64,000 bases of DNA, from the NCBI GenBank assembly GCA_001938485.1, contig MQRK01218924.1:73017-137016 (forward strand). The letters run 5' to 3'. The stretch comes from Girardia tigrina (lineage: Eukaryota). The notes below the pieces were generated by a model. The model made no database searches and was not told where the DNA came from. It was given only the letters and a program-made list of their open reading frames with translations. A program made the translations under genes and the position numbers. Positions 307 through 62,813 of the stretch are shown here, piece by piece; the stretch's first letter is position 1; every line of letters starts with the position of its first letter.

Positions 307-1583
307 AAGGATGAGCCAAAAGTAACTACACAATTTATTCTGTTTAAAATTTTTTTCGGGTTTACTTTTGTTTAAAATTTTTAAAATTATTTTATTCCAC
401 GGGCCTAGAATTTTTATCATGCCAAGATACACAACGGAGCAAAGAATATTTATGATCGAATCTTCAATAAAATTCAATAATTCAATTATTTCTGTTCAGC
501 GTGAATTTCAAAAGCGTTATAAAACTAAAAATGTTCCAGAGAGAAGAACAATTTTAAATATTTTAAATAAATTTTTGACTTCTGGATGTGTGGTAGATTT
601 GCCAAGGCTTGGGCGTCCTAAGATTGTGAGATCCAACGCGTAGAAGAAAATGTTCAATTCAAACCAAGATTATCGACAAGAAAACGTTCGAGTCATCTGA
701 ATATTTCGAGGACATCTCTTAGGCGAATTTTAAAAATTGATCTGAAAATGAAAGCCTACAAAATTCAGATCTGCCAAAAACATCAACCGAATGATTTTCA
801 GAAACGAGTTCATTATTCTGTCAGAATTCTGCAAATGGTGGTCGAAATTACAGATTTCATTGACAAAATGATAATGACTGATGAGGCTCACTTTTGGATG
901 GACGGGTATATAAATAAGCAAAATTGGAGGGTCTGGGGTTCAGAAAATCCCATGGAGGTTATTGAACGAACTTCAAATCACCAAAAATGCACAGTGTGGT
1001 GCGGTATTACTTCTGAAGCAATAATTGGGCCTTATTTTTTCGAAGATACTGATGGTCACCAAATCAATGTGAATGGAATGATCAGAGAGATTGTTTTACC
1101 ATTCATCGAAAATAAACCGGATATGTGGTTCCAACAGGACGGGGCCACATGTCAAACTGCAAATGAGACTATGAATTTGCTAAGAGATAATTTTGGTGAC
1201 AGAATTATTTCAAGACGTGGTAACATTGAGTGGCCTCCAAGATCTCCAGATCTTAACGCACCTGATTTCTTCTTATGGGTTATCTAAAAGACTGTGTATA
1301 CAAAAGAAACCCAAGTTCAATATCAGATCTAAAGAAAATTATAACCGAGGAAATAAGATCAATTAAGCTATCAGTTTTAAACAGGGTAATGAAAACTGCC
1401 ATAGAAAGATGTATAATTTGTCAATCGGGAAATGGAAAACACCTAAATAATGTAATCTTTAAAGGATAAATTAATAAAATATAACTTTTAAAGTTTATTT
1501 TTGTTTTATTGTTTGTTAAATTTAATAAAAGGAAAAGAAACTATAGGTTAAATAAATTGTGTAGTTACTTTTGGCCCACCCTT
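307..1583 (+). mobile_element. Tc1/mariner-superfamily DD41D (rosa/VS-type) transposon, full length, degenerate
   Basis: ~32-bp TIRs (aaggatgagccaaaagtaactacacaatttat vs rev-comp aagggtgggccaaaagtaactacacaatttat), TA at 305-306 and 1584-1585. Catalytic motifs TDEAHF ... QQDGAT-(41 aa)-D with WPPRSPDL. Confidence 0.93.
419..1469 (+). pseudogene. DD41D transposase pseudogene (stop/frameshifts)
   Basis: ATG 419 MPRYTTEQRIFM (HTH), then ORF pieces 748-1287 and 1275-1469 ending WGYLK..VY; frames broken near 643 and 1275. Confidence 0.9.
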
Positions 1584-2550
1584 TATTATTTACAGCCATA
1601 CAGTTTATTAAATATCTAGCAATTGAATTTACGGTTGATTATAGTTACCATATAATAGAATTTTATGGCATAAATATTCAAATCAAATATCAACAAAAAG
1701 TCAAGATCAAATTTCTATTTCGATCTCATTATATTTATTATGATTATCTTAATATATGATACATTTTTTTGAACAAAGATTAAAATTAATATTTTCACTG
1801 ATGACCAGAATGAACTCATTTTAATATTCGCATCTTGCTATTATTCTTCTATCCGGCAACTCAATTTGGGATGATATATCGTTCTAGTTATAATTAATGA
1901 AACATTCAATTTTAGATGACACTATTATTTATAACAAATTATTGAAAACTATTTTAGTTAAAATATTTTCTGTCACTTAACTTTTCTTTCTAAATGCAAT
2001 ATTCACAATAAATAGATCGTTGTTGTAAATTAGTCATCAGATTAGTTTACATAAATTTTAAATTAATATTAAGATAAACAAATAAATATAATTTATCACT
2101 TTTTCGTATTAAGATTGGGGAAAGAAAATGTTTTGTCACTAGAAAATTTAAAACAATATCTTTGCAAATGTTTTACAAATTACTCCGGGGGCATTATATT
2201 TCATCACGACTGGTTTTATAAAGAGGATAATTTATATTTCAAAATAGATTTTTTTATGCACTATTTTAAAATACTTTCAAATGAAATGGAAATTTTATCA
2301 TTCAATTGTTCAAAATAGAGGATTTACTTTAATTAATTGTAAAATGTTCATATTTCATAACCCCAAATAGTCTCGACTGTTTTTTGATAAAATAATATCT
2401 AAAAGATATTTTCTTTGCTATTAGTTTCTAGTTAAAATGTTAGTTGGAGTTCCTTTTACATTGGAAATCTGTTTCAATTAGATTGAAAAATATTTTATCT
2501 ATGACTTCTCCAGTTGCTACAAAAAGACTGAAATGTTTAAGGATTAAGGT

Positions 2551-4148
2551 TAAGGTTCCAATCCCGGGATTTCGGGATTAAATTTCTTCCAATACCGGGA
2601 TTCAGATTACACTTTATTAAGTTTATTTTTACAATAAAAAACGAACAATAATATAAAAATATTCAATCGAAAAATAATAAATTTATAATTAGATAAAAAA
2701 TCTAATAAATAACATTTATTTGTGCCAGAAGAATCATAATCGCGAAAAATTTAAGCGTAGAAAAGATAATTTGTCAAGAGTGTTATCATTCAAATCGGAG
2801 CGGATCTTATTGCATATGTATTTAGTGGTAGAGAAGATTCTTTCCGATTTCACAGACGTAGGAGGAATTGTCAGTAAATATTGATATACACTCTCTAAAT
2901 GGAGCTCTCGTTTGCCTGACTGGACTGCAATATTAATCTCATAATTAATGAAACTTGAATAGGTTACCCGCTCTGTTGTATGTATTGTAACTGAATTTGA
3001 AAAAAAACAACCACAATAATTTCTTGTAATCGGTACTCCATTATAAGATGGTCATTTGATGGTGATGACTCATTTCATTCTTTAAACTCCGAGGAATGTG
3101 AGTATTCTCTTCCAAACTTTGTACTTCTCCATATTATTCTTGCAATGGTTTAAGACGTATCAGTCTTTTTCTTTTTTTCTTAATTGTGCTTACGGGTTGT
3201 GCAGATATTGAAGGACAACTGATACTTCATTGTACCACTGTTCTAAAATTTCTTTTTTGAAGAGATTTGAGAAGCTCTTCGCTAAGAAAATGAGATTGTG
3301 CTTGCAGGTTCTTCGCTTCTGCAGATAGCTGCAACTGCTATCTAAAATGATTTCAGTGTAGAAAGGATTTTCTTCATGATTTCAAAATCTTCATCAGTCA
3401 AACGGACGCTCGTATTCACATCAATAAGAGCTTTTTGAACAAGTGACTTTACAATTAGCAGTCTTTCCAAAATGTTAACTAAACTAACCCAACATGTTCT
3501 GTAGTCTAAAATCTGAGACATATTGCTGGTCATGTTATTCTATCAACGTATGTAATTAAGTAAAATACTTCGTACTTCTGCGGTAATCGTTTAAATAATT
3601 TTACAACCTCTCGAGCTTTTTTCATCACTTCTTTTATGTATCCTTTTGAAAATACTTGAGATTGGTACGTATAATATTTCTTAAGGGGTTTAAAGATTAA
3701 AAAAAATGGTTTTTGAAAAAAATGCTTTTTTATTTTAAAAGTAATTTTTTAATAAAAAAGTGCTAAAAATTACTTTAAATTTTTACTAAGCTACATCCTT
3801 ATAACCAGAAAATATTTAAAACTCTTTTTTGGTTATAAATTTGGAGCTTAGTAAGAATTAAAAGTAATTTTTATAGCATTTTTTTTAAAAAATTACTTCT
3901 AAATCTTACTAAGCTATAAGATTATAACCAAAAAATATTTACTACTTTTTTCGGTTATAAATTAGTAGCTTAGAAGAATTAAAAATAATTTTTTGCATTT
4001 TTGGATAAAAAAAATGTTAAATCTTACTAAGATAGAAAGTAATTTTTCATAAAATTGAGAAGAAATAACGAAACGACGATTTATGGTCAATAATCCATGG
4101 ATTTACGGACACCCATTTGGGTCAGGGATCCCGGGATTGGAACCCCTA
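2551..4148 (-). mobile_element. Degenerate, internally deleted hAT transposon
   Basis: Inverted ends taaggttccaatcccgggat / atcccgggattggaacccta. Minus-strand hAT motifs LDYRTCWVSL (TRWNS-like, 3342-3533) and C-terminal LLTIPPTSVKSERIFST...IRSDLNDNTLDKL (~2755-2880). TSD only imperfect. Confidence 0.8.
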
Positions 4149-5411
4149 TTAATGATATATTATTTTAGGCGAAAAATATTTATAACAAATTTAGTTCTTG
4201 TTCTAAATAAACTTTTTCTCTCGATGTACCTTTTCCTTTATCATGGTCGCAACACTGTGCATAACGTTTGGTTCTTCTCACTTATCCTCAGTAAAAAAGT
4301 AAATTGAATTTTGGCCCTCGGCTTATATTTTTTCTTTGAAAGACTTCACAGCAATAAAGGTTACCCATCCTGATACTATTTTTGTTTCTTTTATTATACT
4401 AACACATTTTTTTATAAAGTATAAGACGTTTGTATTTTTACCTCAATAATAACAAAACAAATTAACAAAATTTTTTCATACAAATTTGTTTAATTTCGAT
4501 TATTTAAATTAATATTTTTTTCAAAAATTGAAAAACAAGATTAGCATTTAAAATAATGTCAAAAATATTAATTATCGATTGTTTGAGGATTTAAATAGTA
4601 AAGTAAATGAAAGAGTCGACTGAATCGACCGGGGAACACAAACATATCTAATTGGCACGCGATCCCCATTCAATAGAACATTGTCAATCCGTTTTGATTA
4701 ATTGATTTCTATTGTAACTTGACCCATGATTGTAAAAATTATTCACATAAATCACGAATTGCTTTTTTAGTACATTAGAAAAAATAGTTAATCATTAACA
4801 AAGTTTTGATTTATTCAAGATCCTATTTTGTTGATATATCGCTCACTTTTTTATATTTCGGGTAAAAGATAGGGTGGGCTTTGTATGTTAGCTATAATTT
4901 AATTTTTGTCTGTTTACCTATTTACTTCAATAAAATGTCTAAATTTACCAATAGACATTATCACCATCGAAATTGTCACTCTTGGCGTCCCAATATGTCA
5001 TACACGTCATTATCCAGTAAGACTAAGATATACTCATTCTCAATTTCAACTGGTATTTGTGTCTTACTATTTTTAAATTTCAACTTTTATATAAATCTGC
5101 TGAAAAATTTTGGTTTTGGATTTTCAAATAATAAAATTTCTATACATAAAGAATAAATAGAAATTGCCGAAAATAATTTGAAATCCAATAGGTTAAATGA
5201 AATGAAATTAGCAAAACAATACAAATTTCGAACAATCACAAACAGTCTCAAATATAAGACTATAGAAAGCAAGATTAGAGACAAAACATAGATATTTGGA
5301 TCCAAAAAGCAGATGAATTTCTGTCAACGAATTCTTTAAGAATTCATTGTAGAGGTGTTGAAGATTGTAAGAAAGTGTCGAATTTTTTTTCGTTCTTATG
5401 ATTTTTCTATT

Positions 5412-5993: not shown

Positions 5994-7495
5994 CTAATCG
6001 AAAACTCTTAACAAATTAGTTGAGAATGCTGTTTGAACATTGATTTTCGGATCACATGATCTTATCAACAATGCTTCACATGACACTGTCTCCCAATAAT
6101 TTTTAAAATGCTTGCACAAAATCTTAAAATCATTTATGCTCATATTACATTTACACGTTTTTATGCTCAGCAATATTACTCTTATCCCCCTTTTTGACTG
6201 TGTTCTTGGACTCTTGCAGAGATGATGGATGGGCAGTCTCTCCAATGTATGTGGCATTGCACCCATTACATGTGTATTGATAAACAATGTCCGAACACAA
6301 TCCTAAAGGAGTATGTGATTTATTACAAAACATATTCTCAACTTTAAATGATTGAGAAATAATTTTTAAATTTAAAATATTATTTGTTGATTTCAAAATC
6401 GAATTCTTGAGGTGTTTAAAACCCTCGTAAGCTTATAGTATACCCAGGTATAAAGCAGTTTTCAATGTTTAAACTATTAATTTGTTCATTATTGTTTTTT
6501 TTTCTTTTTCAATTATTTTATCTACAGTCTCACGAGTGAGTCTGTCTATGATGGACTTAGAGTAACCGTTATTATTCAATAACTTGCTCAATGTATCAAT
6601 AGTTTTAATAGATTTTGAAAACGTAGAAGAAAGAGACCAAGAGCGGTATAACAAACCTTTGATCATATTCCTTTTATATTTAAACTCACAAAAACTGGTT
6701 ATGAAGGTGTATAAACCAGTATCAATTTTCTTTCGATATATTTCAGTTTCATAATGATCATTTTTCTTTTCAATTAACAAATCAAGGAATGGTAATTTTC
6801 CGTTTATTTCCTGTTCCACTGCAAAGATTATATTTGAATGAATCGAATTCATGTAATCTTGAAAAGGAAAAACATGTTCTTGAGATTCAAAGACTAGAAA
6901 GATATCATCCACATATCTCTTATAAAGTAGTGGTTTTTTCCCAAAAAACAATTCTATTTTTTCTTCAATGGAAGAAAGAAATATAGAGGCTAACGTTGGA
7001 GCCAATGGTGAACCCATTGCAACCCCATCTATTTGTTTGTACCATTCACCATTAAATAGAAAATGAACGTTTGAAATAGCAAATGTTAAGAGTTTTCGAA
7101 AAGCAACTTCATCTAAATCAGAATTGTCCAGATTATTCTTACGCCAGAGTTCACAACATAATTCGATGGTTTCCTGTGACGAAACATTAGTAAATAGACT
7201 CGATACATCAAAGGAAACCATAAAATCATTTTCAGTTCGTATTTCAAAATTAGCAATGGAATTCACAAACACAAAACTGTCCTTACAAATAAAATCATTA
7301 GGAATGAAAGATTTTATCTTCTTGTCTAGATATTTAGCAATATTGTACTGAGATGTACGGATCATAGATAGAACCCGTCGCATTGGAACTCCATCTTTAT
7401 GTACTTTAGGAAGACCGTATTATTTTGCTGGTTGAGAACCAGATACATGAAGTAAGTCAAAAACATCCTTCGTAATGTGTCCATCATTTAAATTT
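5994..7495 (-). mobile_element. Penelope-like retroelement, 5'-truncated and decayed (RT + GIY-YIG endonuclease)
   Basis: YGLPKVHK..PMR, SFDVSSLFTNV, GVAMGSPLAP, RYVDDIF, LPFLDLLI, YRK in ORF 6469-7383. GIY-YIG IVYQYTCNGCNATYIGET and EALLI...PKIN in frameshifted ORFs 6151-6396 and 5994-6287. Confidence 0.93.
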
Positions 7496-8077: not shown

Positions 8078-10106
8078 TATAAAGAATATTTATAATTCAA
8101 ATTTAAAATATTTAAGTATCATTCTAAGTATTAATTTTAAATTTTGATGTTGATTTCAATTCCAAATAATTTTTTAAATTATTTAAATTTTGATCAGCGA
8201 ACTGAAAATTAACTAACTCCTCATAGGGATGAAAAGGATATTTATTTTTTTTTCATTGTAATTAAGTAATTCATGCTCAACAATTTAAATATAATATCAC
8301 AACATGCGTTCTTGAATATTTAAACAAAATTTTAGAATATGAAAAAACCAATAATTGTTAACGAGAAAACGATCCGAACAAATTAGGTGCACGATTCGTT
8401 GGTGTCCCGGGTTCACTGAGCTAAAATACTGTCATTTACAATTGTTTTGCATTTGAATACGTTGTAATAATAATACACATTTCATATCGTGGTGAATGAT
8501 TTGCACCAATTAAGTCAATACTCGTCATAGATTGTCAATGAATATCATTAATTATTGGATCTACAAGTTCAAACATGTTTCGAACACAAATCGATTATGA
8601 ATTTCAATAATTATCAGTTTTATTGCTTGAATCATGTTTCTGTACTTAAAAAATGTTTCTTATCTTTAATTGATTTCTGTAGACTTGAAAAAGTTCTCTT
8701 GTAACATTTAAAATTATTTTATGATTTGAATATTTTATTGTAATTATTCTTTATTTCTGAATAATTATTAAAATTTAAGTGCATTTTCATTACTTTTATG
8801 ATTTAGTAGAAAAGTAAATTTTCAAGATTTTATCTTCACAGTTTAAAAAAAAAACTTTTTTATGTTTGTTTTTTAAATATTTTTTATGGAGTATTTCTTA
8901 TGATGGTTGAATTAAAGATATTCTGTCATTGTTTTTTTACAAAATTATCATTCAAAATTTGTCATTTGATACGATATTTTTTTATTCTTAGTACAAAATG
9001 TCTTCGAATATTTGTGTTTAATTAAAGAATATGTTTTTTTAACAATCAATTATCGAAAATGAGATCTAAATTTAGCCATTTGATCATTATTTTTATTTTC
9101 TGTGATGAAATTGGTTCAATAAATTAATAAAAACGGTTTATATGAAACAATTTTGAAACAAAAGGGGTCGAAAACATTTGCAAAAAGGTTTATCTATTTA
9201 TATTTTATAATTCAAATTCAAATCAATTATTAAAATTGTTTTTTAATATCTTTACTAATTCAAACGTGAACTAACCAAAATTAGATGGAGACTAAAAATT
9301 CAAATTGGGACTATTCAAATTTAAATATAGTTTTTTCACTATAAACAATTTGAAATAAAAAATTAACGACATAATAAAATTGAAAATTATTTTTTTATTA
9401 TTATTATTACAAATAATAACATTAAATTACCTCTTAATGTAAACAATGAACAACCGTGATTTTTCATTTAAAATCGAACATCCGTCATATTTAACTCATC
9501 TTTGTATATGAGCGATATATTTTGTACATTTCACAACCGTTATATTTTTTATATTTTCAATTTTGACTTTTTAACTTTGTTAATTGATATTAAGATTGAA
9601 TCATAACGGCACTGTCTAATTTTTTTGAATTTCTTTGGCAAATTCTCTTTTAACATCAGCTTTTAAACTTGACTTAACATAAGGCTCTACGTTCAAAGTC
9701 TTAGTAATAGATTATCTCTAAATTAATTTCCATAAAATCCTGACAAGGAGAGTAATCCGTCACCGATATAAGTTTTGATTGATACATGCTTCAAGTGTTT
9801 CGAAGGTAATGACGACGATTTCTCCGACTTTCGGCTTATAATTGGTTAATAAATCAAGCCAAATAACGTATATATTTGATCCCTTACAACCAGTAGAAAA
9901 ATTTGTACAAAAACTATTTTTATCGTCTCTTTTCTCGATATAAATAAATTGAATTTTATTTCATCCATTTACATCATTGAAACACTACTAACTTTGTATT
10001 CTAAAAGTTTATGTACATCGTTAATTCTTTAATTTGATTCTCTTCATTGTTAACTTTTAGTGATTATTTATGCATACCTTTTAATGTAAACAGCATTGTA
10101 TTTAAG

Positions 10107-10457
10107 AAGGCCTCTTCCCCTCAGTGGTAGCAAAAAATTGCTGGTGCGGCATTCACCCGGGCTAATAGCTCATAGAACTTATAAGGAACTGGTTCGGTGT
10201 ATCATTATCCGAGCACTTACGTGCAAGTCATCAACAGATTATGGGCTCCGCCACTACACGTTTCCATAATTCCACTTAGAAAGTATTGCTTTTTACGGTG
10301 GTGGATTGCAAGCCACTATACTAAGTTGGTCAGAAACTCCAACCAGGCAAGCTTACAAACACTTTAGCATAGAGAAGAGATCTTAGTTTCATAGGGACAC
10401 CGCGTGGGGGGTATGTTCGTCTGGCTTAAAAACAGGTTACCAATGTAACAGGTTCCC
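10107..10457 (-). mobile_element. Short non-autonomous retroelement (SINE/SIDE-like) headed by an HDV-like ribozyme
   Basis: GC-rich island bounded by a perfect 10-bp direct repeat TGTATTTAAG (10097-10106 and 10458-10467). No TIRs, no ORF in the track, ribozyme fold begins at base 1 on the - strand. Confidence 0.75.
10355..10457 (-). ncRNA. HDV-like (nested double-pseudoknot) self-cleaving ribozyme, probably partly decayed
   Basis: Hand fold: P1 GGGAAC/GUCCCU (G1-U wobble, one A-C mismatch); J1/2 hairpin GUUAC-AUUG-GUAAC; P2 ACGAACAU/GUGUUUGU (8 bp); P3 ACC/GGU; L3 CCCCACGC; imperfect P4; J4/2 GCUAAA with putative catalytic C at 10367. The expected P1.1 G is A in this copy. Confidence 0.7.
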
Positions 10458-11203
10458 TGTATTTAAGTATAGTCCTGAACACTATGTATAAACTGAAATT
10501 ATGTGATTTTCTCGAAATGTTTCTCGATTTAATCAATTCACACCTTCCTTAATTTGACTTTAATTAATCTCACTTTGAATTTATTTTTCAATAGAAGATT
10601 TTCACCTAAAATGAAAATTCCGATTTAATAAATATTAAGAGTAAATTTTAAAATGGAAATATTTTTAGTACATTATTCTTTCGAATTTTTGATATTTTCT
10701 AATCTATACCCAGTGTTAGGGTATGTCATTTAATGTGCTTTTCCTCGATATGACAGATACAGTTTTTCATTTATAATTTTTCATAATGCAACATTATGTT
10801 GAAGTAATATACTAAACAAATCACTACTGTTTTGCCAAGATAATCATTTTACTTATGCCAAACATTTTTGAAGTAGTATTAAATTAAAATTTAAAATTAA
10901 AATATTATAACGTTTTTATATGTTCGCTGTGTTGTCTCTTGTCTCTTTGTTGTTCTGAGTGAAATTTTTCAATCCTTTTTTGGTTCTTTCAAGTACAGAT
11001 AGAGTTCTGAAATTTTTAAGATACCTTAGAATCAGAAGACAATGAGTTATTTGAGAATTTATAGTTAGCTAAACTTTGTTTTTGATATAATTGTGATCGA
11101 TTGAATTTTTGTTTACAATAAAAACAAACAAATCACTCATACATAAAATACTGTAATAATATGCTTTTCAGTAAACGATAAAAATCCTTATATCCTATTT
11201 ATA

Positions 11204-12488
11204 CGTAGTGCGTTCAACAAGTACCCTTAGGTAAAAAAATTTAAATGTCAAATTTTAGTTTTTTTGCGTGATTAAATAAATGAATATCAGTTTTAATTCC
11301 AGTAATTGTTTTATTTTATCAAACTCAATAAAATTTTTACTGTGACATTTTGAATTTTCGTCAGTGCAATGATTTCAGGCGTTGAATATCGCCGCGTCAT
11401 CAAGTTCTTTGTGCTGCAGAAGAAGACTTGCAGTGAAATCTGTTATCCTTTGCAGTCAACTTAACTACATGACTCTGATAGCTGTTAAATAGTTGTTCAG
11501 AAAGTTTTAAGGTCCGTGGCACCTTAGTTTTTTGATCAAGAAAACGCAAGTCGGCCACAAGAAATTTTTGACACAGTTGATAAAAAATTTTAGAAGATGG
11601 CCCAAGAACAGCATCGAATTACAATGTAAATGCTGTCACGAAGGCTCAACATAAGTGTTGGTACAATCCACGCCGAATTGAAATCCATGGGAAACAGGAA
11701 AAGGTTTCCATATTCTTACCTAGCTTCTTGACTGGTGAAATGTTGCGAAACCGTTTGGAGTGCAGTTAGAAAAACTTGAATCTGTGGGAACAGAATGGTC
11801 AGACTTTCCTGGCAAATTTAATTACGGAGGATGAAATCCCACTCAGTATGTATTTGTCTGAAACAAAGCGTGAGACAGGAGAGGGAAAACTGCCTGGAGA
11901 GATGCCATCTTTGAAGATGTGAACTCGGACAAGTCATGGATGATTCATGATACTTTCCTTTTTCTGGGATCATAAAGATGTTATTCTTATGGTTTTCGCG
12001 GAAAAAGACATCACCATCAACGCTGCCTATTACAACCAACCAAGTGGTAACCGGCAAAAAGAATAGATAGAAACAGAAGAACATGCCATTATGGTTTCTC
12101 CACGACAATACGCCAGTGCACACATCGGACATTTCTCGGGCAACAATTGAAGGTTTTGGATTAGTACTTGTGGATCATCCACCGTACAGCCCAGATTTGA
12201 CGCCTAGCTATTTTTACATCTTCAGACACACAAAGAAGCACTTGAGAGGCATCCCGTTAGGATCTAAAAACTATTTGGAGGTTGCCGTGGAGGATTTCTT
12301 CGTACATAACCCCCATAATTTTTCAAAAAGGTGTTTTCTGAGTTGATTATTCGTTAGCTGAAGTATGTGAAGCAAAACGGACATTAAGTTAAAAATGATG
12401 CCTATATGCGTTAGGCTTGTTGTGTTATAAAATGACTCTTTGTAATTCATTTTCTTTGTCAGACCGGGTACTTATTGAACTCACCATG
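11204..12488 (+). mobile_element. mariner transposon, full length, highly degenerate
   Basis: TA|cgtagtgcgttcaacaagtaccc ... gggtacttattgaactcaccatg|TA. Motifs ITEDE, FLHDNTPVH, HPPYSPDL; many stops. Confidence 0.88.
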
Positions 12489-14851: not shown

Positions 14852-15158
14852 GTATAGATGGATTCAAAAACGAATCAAAATGTATATTCATAGTATTATG
14901 CAGTTTAAAACCAAAGACATCAGATCGATTGCCTTGCTCTCGATTTACAATAAATCTTTAATATAACAAATATTTTTTAAAATAACACGATAATCATCAA
15001 TACAAAATTTGATTAGGTACTTTTACAAAATAAATGAAAGAAAAGTTATGAAATCCAAGTCTGTATTATATTTTATTATTTATTTGCATAATTTTAAAAT
15101 TTATTAATAACAAGTTTTAAAGTCAAATAAAACTTTTAAAAATTCTCATTCTGTTTAG

Positions 15159-18661: not shown

Positions 18662-19330
18662 TACAAGCTTTTATAATTTGTCATATATTTGCGGTTCTGT
18701 ATCTATTTCACCCACTTCCCACATTTTTTGACTGAATTATCAAAGCCTACTAGGCGAAAACCCACTTTCTATTTGCATTTAGATGTGGCAAATTTCAAAG
18801 CCTACTACTAAGGAAAACATGAGAACGACACTTTAATTACTTTTTTGCGGCCAAACTAAAGGCGGTAGATGAGCAGTGACAGTGAAAAAGTGTATTGTTA
18901 CCTAGAATACATCCATCCTGAAAGTTTCATGTCGCTAGGTGAATGGGAAGTGGATGAATTTTCGATCGCAAGATTTGATGCATCCAGACAGACAAACAAA
19001 TGAAACGTAATAAAAGCTNNNNNNNNNNNNNNNNNNNNNNNNNNNNNNNNNNNATTTGGTAGAGTTTGAATTTTATTCATGAAAATAAACAAAAAGATTG
19101 CTATGTAATACAGTGTATAAATTTGTAGATAATCGTAAGTGGTTTTTTTGCAAAATAAATTAAAAAAATATTTTTCTTCAAAAATTTTCAAGGAAAAGTG
19201 TATTGTCATCTAGAATACATCACTCCTGAAAATTTCAAGTCACCAGCACAACGGGAAGTGGGTGAAATTTCGATCGCAAGATTTGATCCATACAGACAAA
19301 CAAACAAATGAAACGTAATAAAAGCTTGTA
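18662..19330. mobile_element. Non-autonomous element with imperfect inverted ends and internal duplication (spans an N gap)
   Basis: tacaagcttttat...tttcacccacttccc at left vs gggaagtgggtgaaa...ataaaagcttgta at right. A ~130-bp unit occurs at ~18887-19018 and ~19195-19326. Confidence 0.6.
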
Positions 19331-32014: not shown

Positions 32015-33226
32015 TTAGGTTAGAAACAAAGTTCTTGCACAAATTTTATTACAACTTTTATGTACAACGAAACAATGCAGCAAAAGGAACATATCAATCA
32101 TCAATGTAATTACCGTTATTTTCGAACACCTGTTTCCAACGACGGGTAGATCATGGATACCTTTGTTGTAAAATTCAACTGGTTTGCTTTTGAGGAAGTC
32201 TCCAACTGCAGTTTTAAATTCATGGAATAAGTGGAAGTCTGTTGGTGCCAGGTCGGGCGAGTACGGTGGGCGAGGGAGAACTTCCCACTCCAGCTCCAGA
32301 AGTTTTTTACGGGTGAGATTTGCAACGTGTGGTCGGGAGTTGTCATGAAGAAACATGACATCAGTCAATTCTGGTCTTGTTTGTGCAATCGCGTCTGCCA
32401 CCCGTTGCAGTTGTTGACTGTATAATTGAGCGTTGATGGACTGATTGCGTTCCAACATTTCCCAGTGAATCACGCCCTTTACATCCCACCAGACACAAAC
32501 CATGAGCTTCTTTTGATGCAGGTCGGTCTTTGTCTGAGGTTATACAGTTGTAGCCTTGTTTGTCCAGCTTCTTCTGCGTGTCATGTTCGAGTACAGACAC
32601 TATCTCTCATCTGAAGTAACCAATTTGTTCAGACAATCTAAACGACGCTTCTTGGACAGTAGTGTCGTGCGGCGTTGACGGTCGAAGTCGGTTAGTTGGT
32701 GTGGGACCCATACGTCCAGTTTGCTGACTTTGCCAATTTCCTCCAAGTGATGCAAAATGGCAGTATGGTAGAAGCGAAACTTCTCAGCCATCTCATGTGA
32801 TGTCAGGTGTGGATCACTTTCGACACAGGCGCACAAACGATCATTGTCAATAAGTGAGGGTCAACCACTCCTTGGCTGATCCTTGAGATCGAATTGACCA
32901 CGCTGAAACTTCTTAAACCAATCGTAGGCTGTGCGATGGCCAATTGTGCCTTCTCCAAATGCTTGGTTGATACGCCGTTCCGAGGCACCAGCTTTTAGCC
33001 CGGACTTGTAATCATACAGTAATATAGTACGTTGCTGTTCATGAGAGATTTCATTTTATCGGCCATATTTGAAAATTTAGATATCTGAAATTATGAAAAT
33101 ATACAATTAAAAAATATTGCATTTACTTATATATAAATCAATAAAACAATAAATGTATATTGTTGCATTGTTTCGTTGAATATCATTGTTAATAAAAGTT
33201 GTGCGAGAACTTTGTTTCCAACCTGT
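32015..33226 (-). mobile_element. mariner DD34D transposon, full length, degenerate
   Basis: TA|ttaggttagaaacaaagttcttgcac ... gtgcgagaactttgtttccaacctgt|TA. WVPHQL, TSDE, HDNSRPH-(34)-D, YSPDLAPTD. Confidence 0.93.
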
Positions 33227-44782: not shown

Positions 44783-45546
44783 CAGGATGACGCAAAATAA
44801 ACTCCAAGGTACTTTTCTATTGGATCTTTTTATCCACCTACTTTTTTATAGGTAAAGTATACATTTTTAGAATCCTGAGCGTTGCCAAATTCTGATGGTA
44901 TATAAAAAAATCGAAAAAAAACATCAAAAATTAAAAAAAATTTTTGGACGAAAAATTTAACAAGCTTTTTATTCCATAAAAGCATAACAACATTTAATTA
45001 TCGAATTTCAACTTGTCCTCCATCTCTAAGAAAACATTCATGCAAACGTCGTCTGTAGTCGGCCACAACGCGTTCACGATGTGCGCGGTCTCCACGGATT
45101 TCATTGGCAACTCCTTCAATCGCTGCTCTCAACTCTTCGAGTGTGCTTGGACGTTGTTCGCGATGATAAATTCGACCTTTCATGTAGCCCCACAACCAAT
45201 AGTCACATGCTGTAAGATCTGGCGAGCGAGGCAGCCATGTAACTGGAGCAGAATGCGCCCGTGTTCTGCGACCTATCCATCGATTTGGAAACTGTTGACC
45301 CAACAATTCAAGAAAATCTCCAAGAATGTGTGGCGGAGCGCCGTCATGCTGCTCAATGAGAGAATTGAAATTCGGCCAAGTTTGAAGCTCTGGAATAACG
45401 TGCTCTTGATTCAATTCAGTCATCCAACGACCATTGATTCTGCGCTCATTTCCAGGATTCTAAATATGTATACTTTACCTATAAAAAGTAGGTGGATAAA
45501 AAGATCCAATAGAAAAGTACCTTGGAGTTTATTTTGTGTCACCCTG
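44783..45546 (-). mobile_element. Internally deleted rosa-like Tc1/mariner element with ~95-bp TIRs and D46D catalytic spacing
   Basis: TIRs 44783-44877 and 45453-45546; TA at left, CA at right. ORF 44998-45423 HDGAPPH...WIGR...WLPRSPDLTACDYWLWGYMK. Confidence 0.9.
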
Positions 45547-48829: not shown

Positions 48830-50183
48830 TAGGGTTGTCTCATAAGTTTTGTCGTAAAAATAACACCAAAATACAATAAAATATAAAATGTTTTATCAAT
48901 CGTCCACGTCATGCAAATGCGAAAAGTAGTAGCCATTGTGCTCAATACATCTCAGTCAACGTCCAGGGAGGCTGCGTATCCCATTTTGGAAAAAAATCAC
49001 ACGGTTTCTTGTCAAATCAATGAAGATCTTCGATGATATCGTTGACACCGGCATAATTCTTTCCTCTAAGTGCACATTTCATTGGAGAGAATAGATAGTA
49101 GTCAGATGGGGAGAGATCGGGGGAGTATGGTGGATGTGGTAGTACCCGTGAATCCAAGCGCATTCAGCTTGTCCTTGGTCTTAGCAGCTTTATGCGGACG
49201 AGCATTATCGTGGAGATAATGAAAATTGTGGTTTTCTCCATGGAGCAACCGTCTGCGCCTCTGCTGAACGGCGATAATGAGACGATCCAGCTGAGTACAG
49301 TAGACATCCGCACTGATTGCAGCATTTGGAGGTAAGACATCTAACAAGAGCAATCCTTTACTATCCCAAAAGACGGAGACGAGATGCTTTCGGTTTGTCA
49401 GTCTTCGTGCCGGGGTTGCAAGTGGGTTTTCATCCGATTTTCTCCATGATCTATTGTTGAAAGCGCCTTCATTGTCCCATTACACCCATATCTAATCGCA
49501 TGTGATGATTTGGGACAGGAAATCATTCCGGTGATAACTATCCAATAGCTGTTGACAAATTCTTTTGCGATTATCCTTGTTCTGTTGTGTCAGAGCGTGT
49601 GGTACTCAGCAATTTTCCAGATATCGGTATCCCATCGCACTCAAGGGCCGGTACATCGTGGTTTTATCCTAATTAATTCCCTCTGCAATGTTCCTCGTTG
49701 ATGCACGCTTGTCTTCAGTCAGAAACTTGATTATCTCCTCGTCTATGTCAAGAGAGGGCCGCCCTTCGCGGACTTGGTCGTCTGTGTTAAAGTTGTTTTC
49801 ACGAAAATTGGAAATCTACCTTTCACATGTTCTCTTTGAGACTGTTCCAACTCCAAGGGCCGTGTTAATTTCGTCCGTCATCTGTGAGGGTGTTAAATCC
49901 CTTTTTAGCATTAGTAAATTAATTTACGAATATCACAGTGATTAAAATCCATTAGGATGATGAAAATGTGCGAAATTTTCGAAAATGCTATTATTTTATT
50001 AAAATAAAAATTCATTTAGAACAGAAAATAAAAATTATTGGACATAAGTAGATCGTAAATGCTTTTTTATCTAATTCACATTTTATTAGGGATGGCAAAT
50101 ATATAAGAATTATTTATGTGATGCAAGGATATCTGCAGTTAACATAGATATATGTGTGCGACAAAACCTATGAGGCAACCCTA
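48830..50183 (-). mobile_element. mariner transposon, full length, degenerate
   Basis: TA|tagggttgtctcataagttttgtcg ... cgacaaaacctatgaggcaacccta|TA. LHDNARPH motif plus HPPYSPDLSP in a shifted frame. Confidence 0.9.
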
Positions 50184-51825: not shown

Positions 51826-53412
51826 CAGCGGTTTACAACTTGGGGTACTCGAAAGGTTGCTTAGGGGTAATCAAAAAAGTATTATGACTTAAAATGCAAT
51901 TCAAATCTAGCTTAAAAACTCAAAAGAATCTTTAAACAAATAAGCAAATGGTTATTTTCTTATATTAAAATAATTAAATAATAGGAAATAGTACCGTATG
52001 CTGATTTTTTAAACACATTTATAAGGGCAAAATAATCGTCTTGAAAGTAAATATATTAGGTTGGTCGAAAAATAATGGCGGTTTTGGGACACAAACTTTA
52101 AAGACGTGTGAATTCACAGAAACAAAAGTTTATTAATCAAAGTATGAACCGTTAGCATCAATACATTTTTGCAAACGAGAAACAAGTTGTTTTATTCCAT
52201 CAGCATAAAATGCATCGCTTCTCGAAGCGACGAATTATTGGAAGGCATTTTGAGCATCATTTTGGTTTTTGAAATTATTTTCACGTAGGAAGTTGTACAA
52301 ATGCCTGAAAAAGTAGAAGTCCGTTGGCGAGAGGTCTGGTGAATATGATGGATGAAGCAGGGTTTCATAGCCCAACTCATTAAGCTTTTGAAGAGTCACT
52401 TTTGAAATATGAGGTCTAGCGTTATCATGAAGAAGGTTGGGACTTTTTCGATTGATCAATCCCGGACAAAGAGTTTTCAATTTCTTATTCATTTCATCAA
52501 TTTCACCAAACTTTCACCATAACCTTACGGGGTGTTAATTTCGGTTTTGGAAAGTGTTTCGGTACATCATCTTTGTCCAACCACTGTGCAGATCGACCTC
52601 GGTTATCATACAGAATCCATTTCTCATCACAGGTAACAATACGATCAAGAAATGGATCGTTTTTATTGCGAAGATGATTGGCAGAACAAATTTCATAGCG
52701 TGGGTTCTTTTGATTTTCATTCAAATCACGTGGAACCCATTTATCAAGTTTCTTGATTTTTCCAAGTTGTTTTAAATGATCCTGGACTGTTGAATGACTA
52801 ATGCCCAACCCATCTGCAAGTTCTCTGATTGTTGTACGGGGATCTGTTTACACCATTGTCCTCAAATTGTCGTTGTTCACAGCAACTGGACGACCACGAC
52901 CTTCTTCATCTTCAAGGTTTTCATCTCCATCAGAAAATTTTTGGAACCATCGCTGCACTGTGCTCTCAGAAGCTGTTCCCTTGCCAAACGCTTTATTGAT
53001 ATTGCAAGCCGTTTCTGCTGCTTTACGACCCACTTTAAATTCGTAAAAGAAAATTGCTCGAATATTAATTTTTTCCATTATTAATTTAGCGCCGTAAATA
53101 TTCTAAAAAATAACAGCAATATGTTAATAATGACTATATGAATATACAGCTAGGCATAAGATTTCAAATAATATCTAACACTAATGCATTTAAACTTATA
53201 CACATATCAAAGTAGATAAACAAAATATAAAGCTCAAAAACCGCCATTATTTTTCGACCAACCTAATATTTGTATATCTGAAATTACTAGATGATTTCTT
53301 ATTTGTGTGTGTACACGCACATATATATACGTGTGTTTGTGTTTTATGGGTACTCACTAAATAAACAATCAGGTAGAGGGATACTCTAAAGAAAAAAGGT
53401 TTGGAACCCCTG
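51826..53412. mobile_element. hAT-type MITE interrupted by the mariner at 52056-53266
   Basis: Ends cagcggtttacaacttggggtactc ... aaaaaggtttggaacccctg (CAG..CTG); degenerate 8-bp flanks tcctaggt / ccttaagt. Confidence 0.55.
52056..53266 (-). mobile_element. mariner DD34D, cecropia-subfamily-like (Hsmar1-type TIR), small internal deletion
   Basis: 30-bp identical TIRs ttaggttggtcgaaaaataatggcggtttt with TA both sides. WVPRDL, IVTCDEKWILYDN, HDNARPH-(34)-D, YSPDLSPTD. Confidence 0.95.
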
Positions 53413-55701: not shown

Positions 55702-56875
55702 ATATGTATTTAATTTAATTTAATTTAAACACACGTCTTAGGTGAGATTCAAATTAAATGCAAGCACGTTTCCGACAAAAGTCTGAAAAGGCTCCATAGT
55801 TCAGTGATTTAAAGTCTACCTTTGTCGCGCTGACGGCAGAGTTGAGCTCTACAAGGAGAGTCAACTAGGTGCTGGTGCCTGCTTGGTGTTCAGCAGTGCC
55901 ATCTCTCAGAATTTCTTCGTTGGAGATGTACAAGAGGTGTTGGTTGTAATGTTTTGCGCATAGTTCGATGTTTCGCCTAGCTGTTCTGGTGGCGTATGCT
56001 GCGATGTCGTCGTCATTCCATCCAATGGCGGCGAGGAGGAAGTTGTTGGTTGGGTGCCATCGGCCGAGGCTACCCACGACGAAGGGGAAGATTGAGACTT
56101 CGGATTTTCCTTTGGATTGGATGAGATCAAGTTGGGCGTTTAGGTATTTATCACAGGCTCTGTCATATGCGTGATTGAAAGTGTCCTCTGCGTCCCAGGG
56201 GCTTTTGACCTCGATGATCCAGGCTGTACGACCAAAATCGACGAGAATGTCGAAGATGAAAAGTTTTCCATCGGGCATCTGTGTTCGACACTTACGGTGT
56301 TGTTGCCGAACTTTTTGCTGATGAATTTGGCTTGGTCGTTTTTGATTTTATCTTGTTTCATGATTCCAAATGGGAGGGAGTAGTCGCATCCGTTTATGAT
56401 GTGTATTTTCATAGAACCTACGTGTTTACCTTCGATTTGCACGTCGGTGGTGTTGTTGGAGTAAAGGCTTTTAAGAACGTTGAGGAGGATAGGATCAATG
56501 CCTAAGTGGTTGAGGATTTGAAAGAGGAGGACGTGTTGAACGCTGCCGTAAGCGTCTTTGATATCGCCGAAGAAGAAGGAGGCTTGTTTAGGAGTATCTT
56601 TACAGTTAAGGCAAGCAAGTCTTACATAGTCGCGAATAATGTTGACTACAGCATTGTGGTCATGGCATCCTTCGAGGGTCCCTACAGCTTTTTGGTTAGG
56701 GGAGATAATGTTCTTATCGAGGATCCAGTCGGTGTAGTAGTAGCCAATGAAAGAGACGGCTGCTTTTGGAATTGTGTTTGATTTGGTGATGGGTCTCCAG
56801 GCGTTTGGAAGGAGGAGTTCGCTGGAGGATTTGCCATTTTTGGGAATCATGGTGGTGGCAGATTTCTTCAAAGAA
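55702..56875 (-). mobile_element. R2/NeSL-type non-LTR retrotransposon with restriction-like endonuclease; 5'-truncated and internally deleted
   Basis: RT start WRPIT..NTIPK, SPNQKA...GCHDH, DIKDAYGSV fused directly to the knuckle tail HIINGC, then RLE IIEVKSPWD...DKY...FVVGSLGRWHP. 3' UTR ends in (AATTA)n next to (TA)n and an N gap. Confidence 0.85.
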
Positions 56876-57608
56876 ACTCTATAAAAACATCCATATGACT
56901 CTAGTCGTGCTCATCAACTTGAATTTTTACATTCTAAGGAAAACTATTTTTAAGATTGAATATTATTTGATAGTATTTATTTTTAAAAATAATCTTTAAT
57001 AAGTACTTTGTAAAAATTATTGATTCAAACTTATCTTAAAACAAAAGGACCAATAACGTCAGTGTTATTCCAAAAATTGTGAAATCTTTAATATTGTTAC
57101 GGTTGAAAGATCTATCAAAAGTTAATCGAACTTTAATTTAACACTCGATCCATCTTTTAGGTTTCAAAAATTAATTGGAATAGATTTAATTTATCACATG
57201 GAAATGCGGTTGTTTTCTTTCGGAACTGATATTTGATAAATCTGGAACTTTTTAAAAAAAGATTTGAATTTCTCAGAAACATCAAATTTGCAAATTTATT
57301 AAAATTTGGAAATGCTTTTTTTGTAATTATTTGATAACTGATGTCCGTTTATCCATTGATTTATTCTTTGAGTAGGCTTTTGGTTCTACCGAGGATTTTA
57401 TTTTGATATAGTCAAATAAAGGATTGCCATCAGTATCAAATATGTGATAAATATCGGTATCCATCCAGCAATGTAACTCATTGTAATAATATATTCTAAC
57501 ACATTATTTTTCTATCATTCATTATTTCTATAAATATATAATAAGTCTAATTAAAATGAAACATAATCTCATATTATATATTCTAATGACTAGTGAAATT
57601 TGTTGCAG

Positions 57609-60869: not shown

Positions 60870-61337
60870 ATCGAACAACACTACAGAGTTTTTGTGAGGA
60901 AAAATATAGAGAGGATATGGTAAAAGGCCTTGTTCACAGAGTTCGGAATTTGTCGTCAAGTTTTGAAATTGCAAATCACGGTTTAAATATTCTTAGAAGG
61001 CGCTTGAGGGACAATATGTATACAGACAAGCAAATAAAACAACATTATGGTAACATTAGACAAATTATGTACGGATGTACGAGTTAAGAAACAATTAAAA
61101 GAAGAAAATACTGAAGAATGCAAACAAATCATTAAAATACCATATTCTGAAGGATTTATAGCGTTTAAGAAGAGTATTTGTAGAACAATAAGTAGTGCTA
61201 AAGTAGTCTCTGTCACATCCAAAGTTCAAAGTTTCCTCTCAAACAAATCGAAAACAGTTTGTGATTTGCAAGCTAATCTGGTATATAAATTTAATTGTCA
61301 CGGGTGTCAAAACTCGTACATCGGAGAGACGTTCAGA
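60870..61337 (+). mobile_element. Penelope-like element fragment (post-RT linker and GIY-YIG start)
   Basis: MVKGLVHRVRNLSS, KIPY, NLVYKFNCHGCQNSYIGET; related to the copy at 5994-7495. Confidence 0.85.
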
Positions 61338-62813
61338 GCGATGATGAAACATGAAGATGGAAGTTTCCTTGAGATCAACAAACTAGCCTATGCTGACGAC
61401 CTCTGCCTCATCGACACGGACTGGAACAACCTGATAAATAATTTGAACATTTTAAATGCATCCTTTTTAGATTTAGGTCTCAAGATGAACATCGGTAAAA
61501 CCAATGTTTTGAACCTAAACGGAGATACTCGGATCCTTACTGCTGGACACCAGTTTGAGGCCGGTATTGAGTGGGTCTCTAGCTTTTGTTAGCTAGGATC
61601 CACGATCTCTTCAGGAAATGTGGCTGCGGAAGTTAAAAAAAGAATTAAGAAAGGAACCCAGAAGATCCGGAACCTGAGACCAGTGCTGAAGATCTCCAAA
61701 CTGAGTATTAGGAATAAGAAGAAATTAATCAACGCATGCATATTCTCCGTAGTCTACTACGGCTGTAAAAGCTGGAGAACTACGGGCAAGAACATTAAGA
61801 AATTGCATGCCCTTCATAACCTATGTACGCCCATAGTTAGGAAGAAACACAATATTGAAAAGATCCGTATGAACATCCTGGACATTGGACTCCCACATCC
61901 CATGGATATTATCGCGAGTAAAAGGCTTACTTTCCACAGTAAGCCGGAAACTTCAGAGGTGTACGAGACAATCAAACGGAAGGGAGAAATACAAATGGGG
62001 AAAAAGATCAGTGGGAGAAAGAAGCAATCAATTTCGGAATGTCTTTGAGTGGACATACAATGGCTATTTGGGGATGATGCGGTGTATGGAGATTTCATTA
62101 ACCGCATCATTCACAGAGATCCTACTGCATCGAGGGAAACATACATAAACTCCTTAATTCGATTAGGAAGACTCAATAGGGCAAGAGCAACTGTACCGAA
62201 GCTGATCAACGAGAGAGACAAACGTCACCAATGTCCAGTAGAAAGATGCTACAAGGAGTTTGCCGAAAAGAAGGAGCTGAACAGACACTTGAAAATGGAC
62301 CACGCGGTGTCCGCTTCCGCTAATCCTGATCAGCTCAATGACACACAACAACAGCAATTGCCATTCCCATGTACACTATGTAAAAAGTCGTACAAAATGA
62401 AGGGGTGGCTGACAAAGCACCTCTACCTGGATCATAAATTGGAAGAGACAGAAGAAATTGGAGAACCGACAATGACACCAGCGCAAACCAGTACAACAAA
62501 TACCACAGAAGAAATAGTCGTAGAAAACCTCAACATTCCAGGCAACCAGATTCAATCCGTGACGGACCCCCCAACTATCTCGACGGCGGTGGAAGAAGCG
62601 ATAGGTACTGAAGAAACACATCTGACTTTTAGGATTGCAGATCTAAGTGCAAGGGGTAGTTCAGATGTCCCTTTCGCGGCTGTAAGAAGTCCAGGAATAC
62701 AGCCAAAGGTATGCAGAACCATGGATATACAACCCATGGGTGGTCGTTTCTCACAGGGAAGCCGAAAAGATCTCGGAGACCGAAACTATCCGACCCCGTA
62801 GGAGGCCTATCGG
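61338..62813 (+). mobile_element. 5'-truncated RTE-like LINE with C-terminal C2H2 zinc fingers; runs into the N gap
   Basis: LAYADDL, GLKMNIGKT, F.*LGSTI, EVKKRI, SVVYYGCKSW, then CPVERC-12-HLKMDH, CTLC-12-HLYLDH and (shifted frame) CPFRGC-12-HGYTTH. In-frame stops present. Confidence 0.82.

What the first reader, a model, noticed from the sequence alone, without database searches (positions are those of the whole stretch)
10097..10467. 351-bp ribozyme-headed non-autonomous retroelement (SIDE/bipartite-LINE-like), possibly an undescribed family
Seen: a GC-rich island with a perfect 10-bp TSD TGTATTTAAG, no TIR, no ORF, no poly(A) tail and no recognisable tRNA head or Pol III A/B boxes. After the ribozyme come further stem-loops (UUGG..CCAA; GUGG-CUUGCAAU-CCAC followed by CACCGUAAAAA; AGCAA-UUUU-UUGCU near the 3' end). 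Inference: a short element that may need no promoter, released from read-through transcripts by self-cleavage and retrotransposed in trans by a partner LINE, as described for R2 SIDEs. Candidate partners in this window are the RTE-like LINE (61338-62813) and the R2/NeSL-like LINE (55702-56875). It lies antisense to the Trio-like transcript, the orientation in which a ribozyme would not cut the host pre-mRNA.
Basis: partly seen in the sequence, partly recalled or inferred. Interest (0 to 1): 0.8.

Follow-up and report, generated by a model that had tools for sequence, protein, structure and literature searches.

The report
Ribozyme-headed retroelement guild targeting 28S rDNA
This is an old copy, with a damaged self-cutting RNA head, of a short non-coding jumping element that occurs hundreds of times in the genome; it likely borrows the enzyme of longer retrotransposons that insert at one exact spot in the ribosomal RNA gene and at look-alike spots elsewhere, a targeting habit not found in print for this group.

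Summary
The 351-bp insert and its 10-bp duplication are real. It is one of at least 461 candidate copies; 40 of 57 distinct insertions are full length, starting at the first G of an HDV-like ribozyme fold. In this copy the ribozyme core is damaged. The family prefers a site: RGTGT about 16 bases upstream and TAC at the junction (11 of 20 sites vs 2.3% background). Its best match is the 28S rDNA sequence GGTGTCAGAAAAGTTAC|CACAGGGAT. Two family copies sit exactly there, in tandem with APE-RT-zinc-finger LINEs, each flanked by CACAGGGAT. 14 of 57 copies sit independently in a look-alike site in Penelope elements. These LINEs, including the window's at 61.3 kb, carry related ribozymes and tails and form one RTE-like clade. 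A 25%-identical relative in a metagenome ends at the same 28S base. No direct parent LINE was found; cleavage and expression are untested; Repbase/Dfam could not be searched. The short element is a new member of a known kind; the 28S-specific RTE-like clade behind it is the novel part.

The parts
10107..10457 (-). Full-length copy of the short ribozyme-headed non-autonomous family (called SINE-1 here)
   Evidence: profile of the family covers positions 2-356 of 358 at E 1.8e-107
10355..10457 (-). HDV-like ribozyme head (P1 6 bp, J1/2 hairpin, P2, P3, L3, P4, catalytic C kept); damaged in this copy
   Evidence: weak Rfam HDV-F-prausnitzii alignment of an rDNA-borne copy, E 0.9
10291..10314 (-). 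RTE-type 5' UTR motif GGCTTGCAATCCACCACCGTAAAA
   Evidence: related motif in 4 of 5 LINE heads and in both other short families tested; GGCAATCCACTCC stands in BovB 5' UTR alignments in the supplement of PMC5786205
10107..10162 (-). 3' tail: long hairpin with GCAA loop in the family, ending GGAGGCC(TAC); exchangeable between copies
10097..10106 (.). Target-site duplication, 3' side of the element
10458..10467 (.). Target-site duplication, 5' side of the element
10467..10483 (-). Upstream half of the target site (AGTGT at -17..-13, TAC at -3..-1), 8 of 18 bases like the 28S site
61340..62813 (+). 5'-truncated copy of LINE-A (APE-RT-C2H2, about 3.85 kb when whole); 3' end lost in the N gap; member of the likely partner clade
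61303..61328 (+). Look-alike target in a Penelope-type GIY-YIG coding stretch (GGGTGTCAAAACTCGTAC|ATCGGAGAG), 12 of 18 bases like the 28S site; used here by LINE-A
   Evidence: the Penelope label rests on the peptide motif (recalled), Pfam gave no hit on this fragment

Best explanation
The insert is a decayed copy of a multicopy, 350-bp non-coding element with an HDV-type ribozyme fold at its 5' end, and it was likely copied in trans by RTE-like APE-RT-zinc-finger LINEs whose preferred target is one position in 28S rDNA. Shown: copies start at ribozyme G1, end in YAC, and are flanked by 7-11 bp duplications; two copies and several LINE and short-element families sit at GTGTCAGAAAAGTTAC|CACAGGGAT in 28S with the same 9-bp duplication; dispersed copies sit at look-alikes of that site, a quarter of them in a Penelope GIY-YIG stretch. 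Inferred: the element is co-transcribed with rDNA (or any read-through transcript) and would be released by self-cleavage; the LINE protein would bind the tail hairpin, nick the bottom strand after TAC, prime on the YAC/TAC microhomology and cut the top strand about 9 bases on; the zinc fingers would read the GTGT box, too far from the nick for APE alone. Because the upstream half of the target survives each insertion, later elements land in front of earlier ones and build head-to-tail arrays. The window copy is an old off-target insertion whose ribozyme is predicted to be inactive.
For: 461 and 494 candidates. 91 loci reduce to 57 insertions, 40 full length, TSD found in 23. Structure: 90.4% of cells paired vs 15-46% for slid controls; 7 of 14 heads tested score 19.9 or more on an HDV descriptor, 0 of 840 shuffles reach 18, with P3 changing ACC/GGT, ACT/AGT, GCC/GGT, GCG/CGC between families. 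Target: GTG at -16 +/-1 in 11 of 20 non-Penelope sites vs 2.3% of 7114 TAC/TAT/CAC-ending background sites (p about 1e-13); 6.65 vs 4.18 of 15 bases match the 28S site, 0 of 20000 resamplings. Rfam confirms LSU rRNA flanks. All 10 28S-flanked 5' matches are interrupted right after CACAGGGAT and all 23 3' matches have foreign sequence ending YAC upstream. L278: LINE|TSD|SINE-1|TSD|LINE|TSD|SINE-1|TSD-28S; run X1 holds the joint that skips 364 bases, the SINE plus one TSD. Penelope-site copies are scattered on the family tree (12 changes, shuffled mean 12.6), and LINE-A copies with different 5' truncations use the same site. LINE heads begin GGGAT like the end of the duplication, and LINE-E's P1 uses target bases. 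LINEs A, C, D, G, H form one clade (0.99), inside a 21-member clade (1.0); metagenome contig L297, found by the 28S junction alone, joins it (1.0) at 25% identity to LINE-D.
Against: No LINE with SINE-1's middle or tail was found: 30 of 30 tail-pattern loci (of 36 matches) were short copies, a variant tail found only itself, and LINEs A-D, G, H share only the ribozyme, the UTR motif and the last bases. Covariation inside the family is not above shuffles (146 of 500). Only 3 of 33 aligned copies keep a fully intact core. The 7 descriptor misses include SINE-2 (2), LINE-B, LINE-C, LINE-H, SINE-4 and the window copy (14.4). Most copies are not in rDNA: 0 of the 57 first-sampled insertions; LINE-C heads showed no Penelope or 28S flank in 9 of 9. 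No empty allele of the window site was seen; both haplotypes carry it. No intact 28S site is in the assembly, so the share of interrupted units is unknown. The RTE label rests on a FastTree with few named anchors and no R1 or Tx1 reference; one protein inside the RTE-like group bears a 'TX1' name.
Confidence: 0.8

Rival explanations
1. Ordinary dispersed bipartite RTE derivative with a loose sequence bias; the rDNA copies are incidental landings in a multicopy sequence.
For: None of the 57 first-sampled insertions is in rDNA; only 11 of 20 sites carry the GTG box; known RTE elements are described as dispersed (PMC13708176, passages).
Against: All 33 examined 28S junction matches break at one base; at least five families share the same 9-bp duplication; a 25%-identical relative uses the same base; heads carry target-like GGGAT.
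Confidence: 0.09
2. The element is transcribed from its own internal promoter (LINE 5' UTR or an unusual Pol III head) and the ribozyme is only a relic that sets no 5' end.
For: The conserved UTR motif could be a promoter part (PMC5786205 discussion); no RNA data; one A-box-like match.
Against: 40 of 57 insertions reach the first 5 bases of the ribozyme; helices are kept by compensatory change across families; no tRNA or B box.
Confidence: 0.07
3. The copies in Penelope sequence spread as passengers of one Penelope insertion, and the apparent target is an artefact of that.
For: 14 of 57 insertions share Penelope flanks.
Against: They fall across both subfamilies (at least 4 changes forced by well-supported branches); the motif holds after removing them; LINE-A, LINE-B and SINE-2 use the same site.
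Confidence: 0.02
4. The partner is the NeSL/R2-like restriction-endonuclease LINE at 55.7-56.9 kb.
For: It lies in the window; the NeSL element LIN9_SM inserts 5 bases from this 28S site (PMC4640811 S6 Fig).
Against: No sequence shared with the family; LIN9_SM inserts antisense, without duplication and with a T-rich end, unlike these sense insertions with a 9-bp duplication.
Confidence: 0.02

Closest known systems
R2 SIDEs and R2/R1 hybrid SIDEs of Drosophila (PMC3414825; abstract and Discussion read)
   Same: Non-coding, ribozyme head plus LINE-type 3' end, sits in 28S rDNA, depends on a site-specific LINE; old lineages diverged from their partners.
   Different: Partner is APE-type and RTE-like, site is near the 3' part of 28S (Rfam model position about 2819-2824), 9-bp duplication, and most copies are dispersed at look-alike sites.
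Bipartite non-autonomous RTE elements (Bov-A, RTESINE, RTE-N; PMC5786205, parts 1-3 of 5 and supplement passages read)
   Same: RTE-like 5' UTR motif, RTE-like GGGGAGGCCTAC near the 3' end, no ORF, no Pol III head, tail exchange; ribozymes predicted at RTE 5' ends.
   Different: No parent with matching 5' and 3' parts found; no microsatellite or poly(A) tail; strong target preference.
NARTc/RIME/SIDER of trypanosomatids (search listing and abstract starts only)
   Same: Short non-autonomous elements with an HDV-like ribozyme shared with an APE LINE.
   Different: Ingi clade, Pr77 promoter hallmark, no rDNA target.
R1, RT, R6, R7 (R1 clade) and Tx1-clade site-specific APE elements (PMC4640811 passages; PMC2718515 passages)
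   Same: APE endonuclease with sequence-specific insertion into rDNA and fixed duplication.
   Different: These LINEs have one ORF with C-terminal C2H2 fingers and group with RTE-like proteins; R1's site is 60-74 bp from R2's with 14-bp duplication. The RT1/RT2 site could not be read and may lie near this one.
LIN9_SM (NeSL clade, Schmidtea mediterranea; PMC4640811 S6 Fig)
   Same: Targets the same 28S stretch, 5 bases upstream.
   Different: Restriction-like endonuclease, antisense, no duplication.

Membership tests
HDV-like ribozyme | Nested double pseudoknot P1, P2, P3, P1.1, P4 with L3 UCCNCGY and catalytic C in J4/2 | tested here: met
   Family majority and 3 of 33 copies complete; P1 of 6 bp is within the range given in PMC3774820 (section 16). 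Not met in the window copy (P1.1 lost).
HDV-like ribozyme | Compensatory covariation | tested here: inconclusive
   Not above shuffles within the family; clear between families in P1, P2, P3.
HDV-like ribozyme | Self-cleavage at G1 | not testable with these tools
   No assay; no RNA run holds the stretch.
Non-autonomous non-LTR retroelement | Multicopy, variable TSDs, no ORF, no TIR or LTR, some 5' truncation | tested here: met
Bipartite RTE derivative / SIDE | 5' and 3' parts match one autonomous LINE | tested here: inconclusive
   Ribozyme (E down to 9e-8), UTR motif and last bases are shared with several LINEs, but no single parent was found in a capped search.
SIDE (R2 sense) | Copies in 28S rDNA at the partner's site with the partner's duplication | tested here: met
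   L275/L278 and L257.
SIDE (R2 sense) | Parts derived from R2 or R1 | tested here: not met
   Homology is to APE-RT-C2H2 LINEs.
Pol III SINE | tRNA, 5S or 7SL head with A and B boxes | tested here: not met
RTE group (partner LINEs) | Single ORF with APE and RT, no ORF1 | tested here: met
   1241-aa open frame APE-RT-C2H2 starting close behind the ribozyme.
RTE group (partner LINEs) | RT phylogeny with reference clades | tested here: inconclusive
   Nested (0.96-0.98) with CFDP2-like and DUF6451 proteins, apart from zf-RVT, RNase H and RLE proteins; 225 of 242 segments kept; no Repbase references.
R1 or Tx1 clade (partner LINEs) | Two ORFs with gag-like ORF1 | tested here: not met
   Full-length copies are 3.85-4.0 kb with the APE frame within about 300 bases of the head.
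Retrozyme | Hammerhead ribozyme, tandem or LTR-like repeats | tested here: not met
   No Rfam hammerhead hit; fold is HDV-like.

The most novel reading that the evidence does not exclude
A third, undescribed lineage of sequence-specific APE retrotransposons (beside R1 and Tx1): RTE-like LINEs with C-terminal zinc fingers that have targeted one base beside the peptidyl-transferase region of 28S rDNA across deeply separated eukaryotes, that feed a guild of ribozyme-headed short parasites, and that in this genome have spilled over, or switched, to a look-alike site inside Penelope elements.
Probability: 0.6. Interest if true: 0.85.

Novelty: new variant of a known kind. Interest (0 to 1): 0.72.

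Why it matters
Target-specific APE retrotransposons are described mainly from the R1 and Tx1 clades (PMC4640811), and RTE elements are treated as dispersed inserters (PMC13708176). An RTE-like clade with a conserved 28S site would widen that picture and give a natural test of how zinc fingers and APE share target reading, with hundreds of dated off-target sites as data. It shows in one genome how site-specific elements and their short parasites escape rDNA through a look-alike site in another transposon. The site is strongly conserved in eukaryotic 28S, which makes the clade of interest beside R2 for RNA-based gene insertion. The single window copy is itself a decayed fossil.

Tried and rejected
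Rfam gathering scan of the window: no hit. My first reading that the window LINE ends at 62813 in GGAGGCCTA was wrong; the family runs about 90 bases further. Parent search by tail pattern, variant tail, APE query and LINE-C protein: four relatives, no parent; all searches are capped. Expression: no RNA holder listed; runs X5 and X10 laid nothing on the rDNA-borne copy, no evidence either way. Empty allele of the window site: none in contigs of X1-X3, X4 had 2 reads; X1 may be the source sample. L002/L003 are the other haplotype, not new insertions. Upstream Trio exon not found. Intronic orientation bias not testable without annotation. Metagenome junction scan: 5 hits, of which 3 are native rDNA variants, 1 a LINE (L297), 1 a 1-kb non-coding insert (L293); Rfam on these failed. 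Papers not held: Ruminski 2011, Besansky 1992 (92), Fell 2025 (93), Eickbush 2007 (128). Ten literature searches gave no paper on a 28S-specific RTE-like element or a planarian ribozyme-headed short element; the library lacks most subscription journals and Repbase Reports. Earlier scan notes: nothing.

Full report
Observation. The minus strand from 10457 to 10107 is a 351-bp island (GC 45% against 24-29%) between two copies of a 10-mer that occurs nowhere else in the window. It has no ORF over 20 aa, no TIR, no tRNA and no B box. Rfam finds nothing at gathering threshold. The genome is large and AT-rich; the host gene's nearest named relatives are flatworm proteins, so a flatworm, planarian-like host is inferred.

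Family. A search of the own genome gave 461 candidates, 40 scored; a second copy's 3' part gave 494. 91 loci from three searches reduce to 57 distinct insertions; 40 are full length by profile and 23 show a duplication of 7-11 bases counted from the base after the terminal YAC. Copies are 73-90% identical to the window copy and the tree is star-like with median end branches of 0.095, so the dispersed burst is old. The 90%-identical hits are the second haplotype of this locus, and contigs of two DNA runs show both alleles with the element and no empty site.

Ribozyme. The family majority reads G1-GGGAC (P1), a J1/2 hairpin, CGGACAT (P2), ACC-TCCACGC-GGT (P3, L3), GTCCCT, GG (P1.1), GAAA, a 6-bp P4, G-C-TAAA and GTGTCCG. 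On 33 copies 90.4% of cells pair, against 15-46% for slid controls, but covariation is not above shuffles, as expected for dead copies of one master. A 6-bp P1 is within the R2 range (PMC3774820 section 16). Three of 33 copies are fully intact; the window copy keeps the catalytic C and P2 but has lost P1.1, has a P1 mismatch and an altered L3, so it is predicted inactive. Between families the helices change compensatorily; 7 of 14 heads score 19.9 or more on a descriptor that 0 of 840 shuffles pass at 18. Rfam's HDV-F-prausnitzii model aligns weakly (E 0.9) to an intact copy.

Partner LINEs. The LINE at 61.3 kb is a 5'-truncated copy of a 3.85-kb family (4388 candidates) with one APE-RT-C2H2 frame. 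Full copies start with their own compact HDV-like fold that the short family's profile hits at E 6e-5, and end GGGAGGCCCAC. Further families B, C, D, E, G, H were found; A-E have related heads, and A, C, D, E share a GGGCYWGCAAYC motif with the short element. None shares its middle or its tail hairpin: 30 of 30 tail-pattern loci were short copies. So the window LINE is a plausible mobiliser but not the parent. In an RT tree (225 of 242 segments) A, C, D, G and H form one clade (0.99) within a 21-member clade (1.0), within a group (0.96) that holds CFDP2-like and DUF6451 proteins; I read this as RTE group, using the recalled link of the CFDP2-like name to RTE, without reference sequences.

Target. 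Flanks carry RGTGT at -17..-13 and TAC at -3..-1. After removing Penelope and LINE-tail sites, 11 of 20 have GTG at -16 +/-1, against 2.3% of matched background. 14 of 57 insertions lie in one site of a Penelope-type GIY-YIG stretch and are scattered on the tree; LINE-A, LINE-B and a second short family (1875 candidates, about 400 bp, compensatory ribozyme) use it too. The best match is 28S rDNA: a LINE-D copy ends at CACAGGGAT-AACTGG, and L229 is an array of short element, LINE-D and two more heads behind GGTGTCAGAAAAGTTAC, each separated by CACAGGGAT. Of the 5' pattern matches, all 10 with 28S flank are interrupted after CACAGGGAT; all 23 3' matches have foreign sequence upstream, 22 of them element-like ends and one rearranged rDNA (the final AC was part of the pattern). 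Two SINE-1 copies sit in such an array, one 77% identical to the window copy over 234 bases with an almost intact ribozyme; run X1 holds the form without it. Dispersed SINE-1 sites resemble the 28S site upstream (6.65 vs 4.18 of 15) but not within the duplication (2.1 vs 2.1 of 9). From recall, the site lies beside the peptidyl-transferase loop, at the L2449 intron position.

Outside this genome. A scan of metagenomes by the junction alone gave 5 hits: three native rDNA variants, a 1-kb non-coding insert with the same 9-bp duplication (L293), and a 1394-aa APE-RT-C2H2 element joined to the same base (L297). L297 is 25% identical to LINE-D and joins the same clade at 1.0. This is one LINE from one other organism, but it was found independently of protein similarity.

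Mechanism. Shown: structure, boundaries, duplications, shared target, arrays. Inferred: release from rDNA or other read-through transcripts by self-cleavage, tail recognition, APE nick after TAC with priming on YAC, second cut about 9 bases on, zinc-finger reading of GTGT. LINE heads begin GGGAT, the end of the 28S duplication, and LINE-E's P1 is completed by target bases, as in R2 elements that cleave within 28S (PMC3774820 passages); this points to 28S as the ancestral home. Four SINE-1 copies lie directly behind a LINE tail, as expected when a later element inserts at the surviving upstream half.

Known and new. Ribozyme-headed bipartite elements are known from RTE, Ingi, Vingi and R2 (PMC5786205; PMC3414825), so the short element is a new member of a known kind. 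Site-specific APE elements are described mainly from R1 and Tx1 (PMC4640811). The planarian NeSL element LIN9_SM inserts 5 bases away, antisense and without duplication. Ten searches found no account of a 28S-specific RTE-like clade, but Repbase, Dfam and several key papers could not be read, and the Anopheles RT site may lie nearby. Verdict: real, mechanism well supported by genomic anatomy, untested at the bench; new variant of a known kind; interest 0.72.

Noticed in passing
L173:5700-6084 and L174-L198: Second ribozyme-headed short family, about 400 bp, 1875 candidates, ending GAGGATCAC, same target; heads often start CAGGGAT like the 28S duplication.
   Followed up: partly
L234, L240, L244, L250, L251, L255-L276: Long non-coding elements ending CCGGATTCAC at the 28S site whose head resembles LINE-H's 5' end; L234/L251 carry a short rRNA-like insert in the head.
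   Followed up: partly
L235, L236, L241, L246-L249, L252, L253: An AT-rich repeat carries the 26-base 28S target twice, about 215 bases apart, with no other rDNA; possibly a decoy or remnant of insertions.
   Followed up: no
L285 (rc 1230-4541): Restriction-endonuclease LINE with an 1104-aa frame ending at the R2-site sequence, followed by a short 28S piece and LINE-D.
   Followed up: no
L293: 1-kb non-coding insert with the 9-bp duplication at the same 28S base in another organism, ending GAGAATCAC.
   Followed up: partly
L009, L011, L023, L278: SINE-1 copies with three other tails after the same junction, all ending in a GAGGC-like terminus: tail exchange.
   Followed up: partly
window 15155-59910 (+): Trio-like gene: Sec14-like piece near 15155, spectrin repeats, RhoGEF and PH exons; first coding exon not located.
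   Followed up: partly
window 5994-7419 (-) and 60900-61328 (+): Penelope-type fragments (RT hit at 6469-7416; GIY-YIG label from recalled motif).
   Followed up: no
window 55702-56910 (-): Fragment of a restriction-endonuclease LINE (RT hit E 1e-5); unrelated to the finding.
   Followed up: partly
window 18869-19000 and 19159-19308 (+): Two similar short open frames about 290 bases apart, likely a duplicated repeat fragment.
   Followed up: no
window 622-1287, 12071-12346, 32015-32539, 44998-45459, 49102-49479, 52235-52847: Several mariner/Tc1-like transposase fragments by their peptide motifs (recalled).
   Followed up: no
P0242, P0247, P0251: Intact 1188-aa LINE-A proteins on independent contigs of 3.89-3.93 kb, about the element's length.
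   Followed up: no
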